64,000 bases of DNA from Escherichia coli (GTDB lineage: Bacteria; Pseudomonadota; Gammaproteobacteria; Enterobacterales; Enterobacteriaceae), in the NCBI RefSeq assembly GCF_044324875.1, contig NZ_CP172185.1; one strand, 5' to 3'. Positions 1-3,000 of this stretch are shown piece after piece (position 1 is the stretch's first letter; the number at the start of each line of letters is the position of its first letter). The position numbers were made by a program.

Positions 1-3000
1 TGAGTTTTGTATGGATAATAAAATCTTTTTAAATCATAAGGGGAAGAAGTCGTATAAAGAAAGGAATTTATTTCTTTTCTCAAAAGGTGACAAGATAACA
101 ATTGAAGATAATGTTATTGCTGAAGAATATTCAACAATGCCTGTAAAAAATTTCTCCAGTGTCGGCGCTTTTTCATTCCCGACCTGTCATTTTACAGGGA
201 ATATACATATAGGTCGATTTTGTAGTATTGCATCAAATGTAAAAATAATGGGTGGAAATCATCCTTTGAATCGTTTTACTACTCACATGATGACTTATAA
301 CGGTGAATTTGATAAGTTTGCTATGAGTGAGTTTGAACGTAGCTGGACATTGAAACCATTCATTACCAAACCTGAAAATCCGATTATAGGAAATGATGTC
401 TGGATAGGAAATGATGTTGTATTGAAAGGTGGCATCGCAATAGGTGATGGTGCTGTTATTGCTGCCAATTCCGTTGTTACAAAAGATGTGCCCCCATATG
501 CCATAGTTGCAGGAGTTCCTGCAAAAATAATCAGATTTAGATTTGATTCAAATATTATTGATGAATTGTTGAGAATAAAGTGGTGGAATTATAATTACTC
601 AGATCTTCCGGATAATAACAAATGTGATGATATAAATTATTTTGTTGAAGAGATGAATCGATTGATATCAAATGGAAATATTCAAGAGATGGACTATAAA
701 AAATTCAATCTTTCTGAGATATTTAGAGACCTATAATTATCTGTTCTGCATGATAAATGGGCAAGATAACCAGTGCGGGGTTTGCAATTTCAATGGGACA
801 GCGTCATCAAGGAGATTGCAATCATCCTGCCATGCATATACTTTTCGCCATCTTTTTATATTTACTTTATTCCCTGAAAGTATAAAGCATTTATAGACTC
901 CAGCGCGTCTAAAGTATTGATGATAGAAAAATGTGAAAACAAGGTTCCCTTTGAATCAGTAAGCTGTCTGTATAGACGACAGGGGGGGGATGTTTTCTAC
1001 TTATTTCAATGTAGATGTCAGCAAAAAGAAGTAAATATTAAGGATAATGTTGTAAGCCTGGAGAGTATGAGATGATCTTGCGTACTGTCAGAGCACTGAT
1101 TTCTCTGACAGTACGTGCTGCGTGCAAAATCACTACATCAAATAAACCAGCCAAATCTCATAGAGATAAGAGTAAACAAACCAACAGCAGCAAAGACATT
1201 TATCAGTACTACAGTTCTACTGGAAACATTCATTTTTGCCACCTTTTATCATTGCCCCTATGTGTATAGTACGGGTTAAGAAAATCCGCAATAATGCTCA
1301 TTCTGAAGATGGATAAGGGCAAGTTGCTGTTTGATGATTTTTTCTCAAACCGGTTAAAAAACTTGATGTGCGTCAAAAAATGACGCATATTTGCGCGCGT
1401 TTTATTCATCTGGCTGGACGCCCGTACATGTCTCTCTATCAACACATGCTTGTTTTTTATGCGGTTATGGCAGTAATCGCATTTCTTATCACCTGGTTTC
1501 TTTCTCACGATAAGAAACGCATCCGTTTCTTAAGCGCCTTTCTGGTGGGGGCAACATGGCCGATGAGTTTCCCGGTGGCGCTGTTGTTTTCACTGTTTTA
1601 AATCTTACTCACTGGCTTGACGGCACCACGCAGACTTATATCATTTGGATGAATCGATAAATTTCACAAGTGGCTAAGGAGAAAGTATGTCGCATCTGGA
1701 TGAAGTCATCGCGCGCGTGGATGCCGCGATTGAAGAGAGCGTCATTGCCCATATGAACGAATTATTAATCGCCCTGAGCGATGACGCGGAGTTAAGTCGG
1801 GAAGATCGCTATACCCAGCAGCAGCGTCTGCGCACAGCGATCGCCCATCACGGTCGCAAACATAAAGAAGATATGGAAGCGCGCCACGAACAGTTAACCA
1901 AAGGTGGCACCATCCTCTGATTAAAATGTGCGCCTGGCCACCAGCCAGGCACCAACCACAAGTAAAATTGCGCCACAAATTGGGCCGATCAACGCCCGTA
2001 GTGGTACGCCATGGCTGCGGAAGATATCCAGCACCAGACCGCCAATCAGCTGGCTGGCGACCAGTACCGCAATAGTTGTCGCCGCTCCCACATTCTGATA
2101 TCCGCTGATACTGGCGAAGACAAAAAACGATCCCAGCAAGCCAGGTATAAGTGTCCACCAGCGCACGTTGGACACCAGTTCGCCAAACCCCGCCATACCT
2201 TGTTTAAACCATAAAATAGAAACAAAGAGCACAATCCCCACCAGTGAGTTCAGCAACATGGCGATGAGAATGGTAGAGGAGGTCTGGGTGATGCGCACCA
2301 TCAGCGTGTTCTGGACTACCAGACCAATTCCGGCGGCAATCAAAAAAGCAAGGGTGAGCGACTGATTCATCCAATCGCGTCCGGTTCAGTGCGCTCGTCG
2401 AGTTGCAACTGCATAAATGTCAGATCCAGCCAACGACCAAATTTAGTGCCTACCTGCGGCATTTGTGCGGTGACGACAAATCCCAGCGTCTGGTGGAGAT
2501 GCAGCGAGGCCTGGTTTTGCGATTCGATCCCGGCGACCATGACATGCTTCCCGCAATCCCGCGCTTCATCAATCAATCGGCTTAACAATTTACGCCCCAG
2601 ACCTTTGCCCTGATGATCGGGATGGACATAAACCGAATGTTCCACGGTATGGCGAAAACCATCGAAACTACGCCAGTCGCCAAACGAGGCATATCCCGTC
2701 ACTACGCCATCTTCTTCGCTCACCAGCACCGGATAACCTGCTATGGTCCGCGCTTCAAACCAGGCAATGCGGTTATCAGCATCCACCGTTTGGTCATTCC
2801 AGATAGCCGCCGTATACAACACGGCGTGGTTATAAATTTCCGCAATGGCAGCACAGTCGGCTTTGCGGGCAAAACGGATGGACATGTTTGGCCTCGATTA
2901 AATAATGATGATGACGTTATCAATACTATCGAAAACAGCCCGAAGCAACGGATTCCTCGATGAAATTATTGCGTGTTGCAGAGGGGATGTGACGGCTGCA

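What the first reader, a model, noticed from the sequence alone, without database searches (positions are those of the whole stretch)
1081..1115. Perfect 13-bp inverted repeat downstream of yncL that is not a standard terminator
A 13-bp perfect stem with a 9-nt loop lies 22 bp past the yncL stop, but neither strand has a U-run after it. It could stabilise the short yncL transcript or be a protein-binding palindrome.
Basis: seen in the sequence. Interest (0 to 1): 0.25.

Follow-up and report, generated by a model that had tools for sequence, protein, structure and literature searches.

The report
Protective hairpin ending yncL mRNA
The inverted repeat is real and encodes the stem-loop at which the short E. 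coli yncL messenger RNA ends in published 3'-end maps; it is an ordinary example of the U-less hairpins that cap transcripts whose termination depends on the Rho factor.

Summary
The 13-bp perfect inverted repeat with a 9-nt loop (1081-1115) is real, and chance does not explain it: simulations expect 0.005 such repeats per 64 kb. It lies 22 nt past the stop of yncL, which is on the minus strand, and no T-run follows it on either strand. It is single-copy and present in 5411 of 5426 complete E. coli genomes. In K-12 the sequence is identical and sits between convergent patD and yncL. The window strain carries a 1.34-kb low-GC insert in between.

Two published maps for MG1655 place the yncL RNA 3' end at this hairpin. 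Term-seq puts it at 1517039(-), 3 nt past the stem. TRS lists it as the primary yncL terminus. A bicyclomycin-sensitive Rho termination region lies 286 nt downstream. The 100 nt after the stem are C-rich and G-poor.

Other Escherichia lineages keep the stem through a U-A to C-G change, with a U·G intermediate only on the yncL strand, while the loops differ. This is one covarying pair and is not statistically significant. Other genera have unrelated hairpins at the same place.

Best reading: a protective 3' stem-loop of a Rho-terminated transcript, a class described by Dar and Sorek in 2018. It is already catalogued and of low interest.

The parts
1081..1115 (-). 13-bp perfect stem with a 9-nt loop. 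In the yncL transcript it reads CGUACUGUCAGAG-AAAUCAGUG-CUCUGACAGUACG.
   Evidence: -20.9 kcal/mol. Identical in MG1655 at 1517042-1517076. Drawn as the structure at the yncL primary 3' terminus in PMC10687069 Supp. Data 3.
1078..1078 (-). Position equivalent to the dominant Term-seq 3' end of the yncL RNA in MG1655 (1517039, minus strand). The RNA ends ...CAGUACG-CAA, 3 nt past the stem.
   Evidence: PMC7815308 Supp. file 1 lists this end in all three growth conditions. The two scores seen were 75,264.6 and 536,300. Coordinates were transferred through. TRS gives a peak at 1517034/5 within 1517026-1517043. This was not measured in the window strain.
1116..1137 (-). 22-nt spacer of the yncL 3' UTR between the stop codon and the stem.
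   Evidence: Invariant among the E. coli alleles aligned.
1138..1233 (-). yncL coding sequence (31 aa, MNVSSRTVVLINVFAAVGLFTLISMRFGWFI, plus stop).
   Evidence: Annotated as the stress response membrane protein YncL in matching genomes. Pfam PF28073:YncL is recorded on homologues.
981..1080 (-). C-rich, G-poor tract immediately downstream of the hairpin on the yncL strand (28 C against 8 G in 100 nt). Candidate Rho loading (rut) region.
   Evidence: MG1655 has 11 C against 4 G in the first 50 nt. Dar and Sorek describe C-over-G enrichment just downstream of such hairpins. Its role here is inferred.

Best explanation
The repeat encodes the 3'-terminal stem-loop of the short, sigma-S-dependent yncL mRNA (about 190 nt, an estimate not measured here). 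RNA polymerase transcribing yncL on the minus strand passes the hairpin because no U-tract follows it. Rho then loads on the untranslated, C-rich, G-poor RNA just downstream and terminates transcription over the next few hundred nucleotides. 3'-to-5' exonucleases trim the heterogeneous tails back until the stable 13-bp stem stops them. This leaves a precise, protected 3' end a few nucleotides past the stem and lets the mRNA accumulate. Shown for K-12, whose sequence is identical: the RNA 3' end lies at the stem base, it is highly abundant in stationary phase, and read-through downstream rises when Rho is inhibited. Shown here: the hairpin is stable, non-random, single-copy, nearly universal in E. 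coli, lacks a U-tract, and is followed by a C>G tract. Inferred: the sequence of events (Rho termination, then trimming), a stabilising effect on mRNA half-life, and that the same holds in the window strain, where the sequence beyond 49 nt downstream of the stem is replaced by an insertion.
For: (1) Term-seq in MG1655 shows a dominant 3' end at 1517039(-) in all three conditions, with scores of 75,264.6 and 536,300 in the two seen (PMC7815308 Supp. file 1). With patD ending at 1517002 and yncL at 1517099-1517194, that is 3 nt past the stem. No other 3' end is listed in 1517000-1517199.
(2) An independent TRS analysis calls a 'Primary yncL' terminus at 1517026-1517043 and prints this hairpin at -21.6 kcal/mol (PMC10687069).
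(3) A Rho termination region is listed at 1516753(-). Upstream/downstream reads are 220/9 untreated and 106/72 with bicyclomycin, giving a Rho score of 16.6 and p = 5e-21 (PMC7815308 Supp. file 2).
(4) There is no U-tract and no terminator call. Downstream there are 28 C against 8 G.
(6) Conservation: 5411 of 5426 genomes carry it, at one copy each. All alleles seen keep at least 12 contiguous pairs while the loop varies. Two other Escherichia lineages have a compensatory U-A to C-G change and a 15-bp stem. The E29 allele gives U·G on the yncL strand but C·A on the other strand.
(7) yncL in three other genera is followed by an unrelated hairpin 20-45 nt after the stop.
Against: The Rho score is computed on 800-nt windows. 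It could in principle reflect another antisense promoter inside patD rather than yncL read-through. Covariation rests on one pair in five sequences and is not significant (148 of 500 shuffles reach the observed value). No half-life or exonuclease-mutant data for yncL were found. The two datasets disagree slightly on the end position (3 nt versus 7-8 nt past the stem). In a Klebsiella-like relative, yncL ends in a canonical A-tract/hairpin/U-tract terminator, so a Rho-type ending is not obligatory for this gene. No data exist for the window strain, whose downstream sequence differs from K-12 beyond window position 1032.
Confidence: 0.75

Rival explanations
1. The hairpin is itself a factor-independent terminator despite lacking a U-tract, possibly working in both directions for convergent patD and yncL in K-12-type genomes. 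The mapped 3' end would then be the true termination point.
For: The RNA end is precise and lies next to a strong hairpin. The hairpin sits between convergent genes in about 79% of genomes, 39 nt after the patD stop and 22 nt after the yncL stop. A Klebsiella-like relative has a true bidirectional terminator in the same place.
Against: There is no U-run on either strand. The Term-seq end is 3 nt past the stem, not the 7-9 nt typical of intrinsic terminators (established knowledge). As a contrast, the sra terminator in the same table ends 7 nt past its stem. Read-through rises strongly with bicyclomycin. patD-yncL is listed as a convergent pair with overlapping transcripts (PMC12288877). No plus-strand 3' end is listed near the hairpin.
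Confidence: 0.1
2. The 3' end arises by endonucleolytic processing. RNase III could cut duplexes formed by overlapping patD and yncL transcripts (an excludon), or cut the extended lower stem. RNase E could also be responsible. On this reading the hairpin marks a stable decay or processing product rather than a trimmed Rho terminus.
For: patD-yncL is listed among convergent overlapping pairs. yncL RNA level changed in RNase E or RNase III mutants on tiling arrays and northern blots (PMC3082872; the direction is not given in the text held). The read-through RNA can form an extra 10-bp lower stem.
Against: The lower stem is not predicted in the L004 and L095 alleles. A 13-bp stem is short for RNase III (established knowledge). 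In the window strain patD lies 1.34 kb away, yet the hairpin is unchanged. Processing does not exclude a protective role for the hairpin afterwards.
Confidence: 0.08
3. The palindrome is a DNA site for a dimeric DNA-binding protein, or a recombination or insertion target linked to the nearby 1.34-kb insertion.
For: The dyad symmetry is perfect. The arms contain TACTGT...ACAGTA, which resemble LexA half-sites. A strain-variable insertion junction lies 39 nt away, at 1032-1042.
Against: The half-site spacing is 19 nt, not the 8 nt of a LexA box (seen directly in the sequence). The loop/spacer is polymorphic in sequence and length. The only variable stem position covaries. The hairpin is identical in genomes with and without the insertion. 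No terminal repeats of the insert involve it. The RNA end maps to it.
Confidence: 0.03

Closest known systems
[quoted passage not shown]
   Same: A stable hairpin with no U-rich tail and no upstream A-tract. The precise steady-state 3' end lies immediately after it. C-over-G enrichment follows downstream, and read-through is sensitive to bicyclomycin.
   Different: Nothing found. Exonuclease dependence and a stabilising effect have not been shown for yncL specifically. I could not check whether yncL is in that paper's own tables, because its supplements are not held.
Canonical intrinsic (Rho-independent) terminator, for example the sra terminator at window 51921-51948
   Same: A hairpin of similar stem length and energy at the end of a gene, with a sharp RNA 3' end.
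   Different: This one has no U-tract and no A-tract. Its 3' end is 3 nt rather than about 7 nt past the stem, and read-through depends on Rho inhibition.
STnc1110, the Salmonella sigma-S-dependent 'coding sRNA' that carries the yncL orthologue (PMC5437024)
   Same: Same gene, and the same kind of short, abundant, stationary-phase transcript, for which a defined 3' end is expected.
   Different: I could not retrieve the Salmonella sequence, so whether its 3' hairpin is homologous is unknown. Rfam has no family matching this region.
REP/BIME extragenic palindromes acting as 3' mRNA stabilisers
   Same: A U-less hairpin in a 3' UTR that can block exonucleases.
   Different: REP elements are a multi-copy family. 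This sequence occurs once per genome and has no REP consensus.

Membership tests
Protective 3' stem-loop of a Rho-dependent transcript (Dar and Sorek class) | The dominant steady-state RNA 3' end lies immediately downstream of an energetically stable stem-loop. | tested here: met
   Term-seq end at 1517039(-), which is stem + 3 nt. TRS terminus at 1517026-1517043. Hairpin energy -20.9 kcal/mol. These are K-12 data; the window sequence is identical from 20 nt downstream of the stem through the 3' UTR.
Protective 3' stem-loop of a Rho-dependent transcript (Dar and Sorek class) | The stem-loop is not followed by a U-rich tract or preceded by an A-tract. | tested here: met
   The tail is CAAGAUCAUCUC and the upstream sequence is GCACGCAGCA. 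No terminator call.
Protective 3' stem-loop of a Rho-dependent transcript (Dar and Sorek class) | Read-through beyond the 3' end increases when Rho is inhibited with bicyclomycin. | tested here: met
   Rho termination region at 1516753(-). Reads are 220/9 untreated and 106/72 with bicyclomycin, score 16.6 (PMC7815308 Supp. file 2). Resolution is coarse (800-nt windows), and these are K-12 data only.
Protective 3' stem-loop of a Rho-dependent transcript (Dar and Sorek class) | C-over-G enrichment (rut-like) in the sequence just downstream. | tested here: met
   Window: 28 C against 8 G in the first 100 nt. MG1655: 11 C against 4 G in the first 50 nt.
Protective 3' stem-loop of a Rho-dependent transcript (Dar and Sorek class) | The hairpin blocks PNPase and RNase II; 3'-extended species appear in exonuclease mutants. 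| not testable with these tools
   This needs RNA from pnp and rnb mutants. No such data for yncL were found.
Intrinsic (Rho-independent) terminator | A run of U residues (about 5 or more of 8) directly after the stem. | tested here: not met
   3 T in the 12 nt after the stem on the minus strand and 4 scattered T on the plus strand.
Intrinsic (Rho-independent) terminator | The RNA 3' end lies 7-9 nt after the stem, within the U-tract. | tested here: inconclusive
   Term-seq gives +3 nt. The lower-resolution TRS peak is at +7 or +8 nt. There is no U-tract in either case.
REP/BIME or other dispersed extragenic palindromes | Many copies per genome sharing a consensus. | tested here: not met
   An 80-nt blastn query found a median of 1 and a maximum of 2 places per genome in 5411 genomes.
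LexA (SOS) box | CTGT-N8-ACAG dyad. | tested here: not met
   The sequence has CTGT-N19-ACAG.
Any curated Rfam family | A covariance-model match. | tested here: not met
   No match at E <= 1 in window 1-3000.

The most novel reading that the evidence does not exclude
The hairpin may be more than a passive exonuclease block. It could be a regulated 3'-UTR element, for example a binding site for a 3'-end RNA chaperone such as ProQ, or a platform that makes the abundant yncL/STnc1110 transcript a dual-function RNA. The yncL mRNA appears in Hfq-dependent RIL-seq and TRIC-seq networks with KilS and RprA. On this reading, the extraordinary stationary-phase abundance of this tiny mRNA would depend on the hairpin.
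Probability: 0.07. Interest if true: 0.35.

Novelty: already known. Interest (0 to 1): 0.1.

Why it matters
It matters little beyond annotation. The result fixes the 3' boundary of the yncL transcription unit at about window 1078. It explains why a gene with no recognisable terminator still gives a discrete, very abundant small mRNA. It is also a clean textbook instance of a U-less protective hairpin next to a rut-like tract. One practical point follows: when yncL or patD is deleted or tagged, the hairpin should be kept or removed deliberately, because it probably sets yncL mRNA stability and limits antisense transcription into patD.

Tried and rejected
- **Rfam:** a scan of window 1-3000 at E <= 1 found nothing.
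- **PatD-based scan:** I spent the single genome-contig scan on PatD. Only 2 of the 80 loci carried yncL near patD, so it gave little for covariation. E. albertii has a canonical terminator after patD and no yncL within 1 kb.
- **YncL homologues:** the representative-library search with YncL gave 9 hits. Three of them were used to fetch loci.
- **Salmonella:** the STnc1110/yncL sequence could not be obtained because the published alignment is an image.
- **Supplements not held:** Dar and Sorek 2018, Stead 2011, ExcludonFinder and PMC9023263.
- **Extended lower stem:** the 10-bp lower stem seen was rejected as a functional part. Its 3' half lies beyond the mapped RNA end, and it is not predicted in the L004 and L095 alleles.
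- **LexA-box idea:** rejected on spacing.
- **Link to the neighbouring insertion:** rejected, because the hairpin is identical in genomes without the insert and the insert has no terminal repeats involving it.
- **Covariation statistics:** computed and found non-significant. They are reported as anecdotal only.

Full report
**Observation**

The window is E. coli chromosome. Positions 1081-1093 (CGTACTGTCAGAG) and 1103-1115 (CTCTGACAGTACG) form a perfect 13-bp inverted repeat around a 9-nt spacer.

Neither strand has a T-run after the stem. The minus-strand tail is CAAGATCATCTC and the plus-strand tail is TGCTGCGTGCAA. The consensus terminator scan did not call the site. The hairpin alone folds at -20.9 kcal/mol on the yncL strand and -19.7 on the other. 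In 106-nt context the z-scores against shuffles are -3.6 and -2.0.

It is the longest perfect short-loop inverted repeat in the 64 kb. In 200 first-order Markov simulations of the window, the mean number of stems of 13 bp or more was 0.005.

**Genomic context**

A 561-nt query around the site matched 5411 of 5426 complete E. coli genomes. Only 1156 of them covered the part left of window 1032. In K-12-type genomes the identical hairpin lies between convergent genes, 39 nt after the patD stop and 22 nt after the yncL stop.

The window strain, like about 21% of genomes, carries a 1337-bp low-GC insert (29-38% GC). The insert encodes a CatB-related O-acetyltransferase and sits between the patD stop and the hairpin. 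It is flanked by an imperfect 11-bp direct repeat, TAAACATTAAG/TAAATATTAAG. The hairpin is the same with or without the insert, so it is not part of that element.

An 80-nt query shows the hairpin is single-copy, with a median of 1 place per genome. It is therefore not a REP-type repeat. Rfam has no match.

**Published transcript ends**

Adams et al. 2021 (PMC7815308, Supplementary file 1) list a dominant Term-seq 3' end at MG1655 1517039 on the minus strand in all three growth conditions. The two scores seen were 75,264.6 and 536,300, among the highest in the neighbouring rows. MG1655 annotation puts patD at ...1517002 and yncL at 1517099-1517194. Reading the sequence places the hairpin at 1517042-1517076. 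The RNA therefore ends ...CUCUGACAGUACG-CAA, 3 nt past the stem, which corresponds to window 1078.

That table labelled the end only 'antisense patD'. The reason is that it lies 60 nt past the yncL stop, beyond the paper's 50-nt 'primary' cut-off. No other 3' end, on either strand, is listed in 1517000-1517199.

An independent method, TRS (PMC10687069), calls a 'Primary yncL' terminus at 1517026-1517043 with a peak at 1517034/5. It prints this hairpin as the associated structure, at -21.6 kcal/mol. In that paper's 3'-UTR-versus-CDS analysis, yncL is not an outlier.

**Rho dependence**

Supplementary file 2 of Adams et al. lists a Rho termination region at 1516753(-), 286 nt downstream of the hairpin and antisense to patD. 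Upstream/downstream read counts are 220/9 without bicyclomycin and 106/72 with it. This gives a Rho score of 16.6 and p = 5e-21 (method).

The sequence just after the stem on the yncL strand is C-rich and G-poor. The window has 28 C against 8 G in the first 100 nt, and MG1655 has 11 C against 4 G in the first 50 nt.

Dar and Sorek 2018 (PMC6061677) defined this situation. Rho-dependent transcripts have precise steady-state 3' ends immediately after stable stem-loops that lack U-rich tails and A-tracts. C-over-G enrichment and rut sites lie just downstream. The stem-loops protect against PNPase and RNase II.

Four of the five defining features could be checked here and are met. Exonuclease dependence cannot be tested with these tools. 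The defining U-tract of an intrinsic terminator was tested and is not met.

**Conservation**

Several alleles occur within E. coli:

- The K-12/window allele has loop CACTGATTT on the plus strand.
- A common allele has AGTTGATTT, which adds an A-T pair and gives a 14-bp stem with a 7-nt loop.
- An allele in W2-5 and MIN10 loses the outermost pair.
- A single genome (E29) has an extra T-to-C change in the left arm. This gives a U·G wobble in the yncL-strand RNA but a C·A mismatch in the opposite-strand RNA.

Two Escherichia lineages outside the 5426 E. coli genomes (L004 and L095; one search shows their allele is absent from that collection) carry ACGCACTGTCAGAGA-N9-TCTCTGACAGTGCGT. That is the completed U-A to C-G compensatory change, a 15-bp stem, and yet other loops.

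The pattern suggests selection on an RNA helix read from the yncL strand. It is still one covarying pair in five sequences, and the shuffle control is not significant (148 of 500). I treat it as suggestive only.

In other genera, yncL is followed 20-45 nt after its stop by unrelated hairpins:

- A Klebsiella-like relative has a canonical A-tract/hairpin/U-tract terminator.
- Superficieibacter has a GC-rich U-less hairpin.
- One metagenome-assembled genome has an AT-rich U-less hairpin.

A 3' hairpin is therefore a constant of this small gene, but its sequence and type are not.

**Mechanism and rivals**

The best-supported mechanism (confidence 0.75) runs as follows. Transcription passes the hairpin. 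Rho loads on the C-rich untranslated RNA and terminates downstream. Exonucleases trim back to the stem. The stem then protects the yncL mRNA, which accumulates strongly in stationary phase. In Salmonella the yncL transcript is the sigma-S-dependent 'coding sRNA' STnc1110 (PMC5437024).

The mapped end, the bicyclomycin effect and the sequence features are shown. The order of events, the stabilising effect and the transfer to the window strain are inferred.

There are three rivals:

- **A U-less intrinsic or bidirectional terminator (0.1).** The missing U-tract, the +3 end, the bicyclomycin effect and the listing of patD-yncL as an overlapping convergent pair (PMC12288877) all argue against it.
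- **Endonucleolytic processing, such as RNase III on sense/antisense duplexes (0.08).** yncL levels do change in RNase mutants (PMC3082872). The details are not available in the text held.
- **A protein-binding or recombination palindrome (0.03).** The variable loop, the compensatory stem change, the wrong spacing for a LexA box and the independence from the neighbouring insert argue against it.

**Verdict**

The element is an ordinary member of a described class. Its RNA end and fold already appear in the supplementary tables of two genome-wide studies, although it has never been studied on its own. Novelty: already known. Interest: 0.1.

Noticed in passing
window 1-1042 (insert right junction at 1032-1042); L002 4956-6303: A 1337-bp low-GC (29-38%) insertion carrying a CatB-related O-acetyltransferase gene (window 11-736, +) lies between the patD stop and the yncL hairpin in 1156 of 5411 E. 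coli genomes. It is flanked by an imperfect 11-bp direct repeat (TAAACATTAAG/TAAATATTAAG) that overlaps the patD stop codon. It has no transposase and no terminal inverted repeats. It brings its own hairpin right after patD (L002 4976-4999).
   Followed up: partly
window 1094-1102 (hairpin loop): The loop is polymorphic in E. coli. The CACTGATTT and AGTTGATTT alleles both occur in genomes with and without the 1.34-kb insert. This implies recombination between the two sites or a recurrent insert.
   Followed up: partly
window 982-989: A G8 homopolymer (C8 on the yncL strand) lies in the non-coding tail of the insert. It is interrupted in strain NY1601 (GGAGGGGG, L002 about 6244-6251). It may add to the C-richness of the RNA downstream of the hairpin.
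   Followed up: no
window 1383-1400, between yncL and ortT: A small hairpin (ACGCATATTTGCGCGCGT) has T-runs on both sides. Adams et al. list a weak 'orphan' plus-strand 3' end at MG1655 1517357 (about window 1396), just upstream of ortT. It could be an attenuator or leader end for ortT.
   Followed up: no
window 47493-47518, 51921-51948, 38768-38793 and 62858-62891: These are the other perfect hairpins of 11-12 bp in the window. 51921-51948 is the sra bidirectional intrinsic terminator; its Term-seq end at 1555765(-) lies 7 nt past the stem, inside a U-tract. 47493-47518 also has a T-run. Both are useful contrasts to the U-less yncL hairpin.
   Followed up: partly
L090 (E. coli VE-T9) 407-770: In this strain yncL is truncated at its 5' end by an IS3-family insertion, while the 3' hairpin is retained.
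   Followed up: no
L005 (E. albertii) 2935-2963: In E. albertii, patD is followed by a canonical U-tract terminator (AGCTGGAATA-N9-TATTCCAGCT-ATTTTT). No yncL was found in the 1 kb available downstream, so the patD-yncL junction differs in that species.
   Followed up: no
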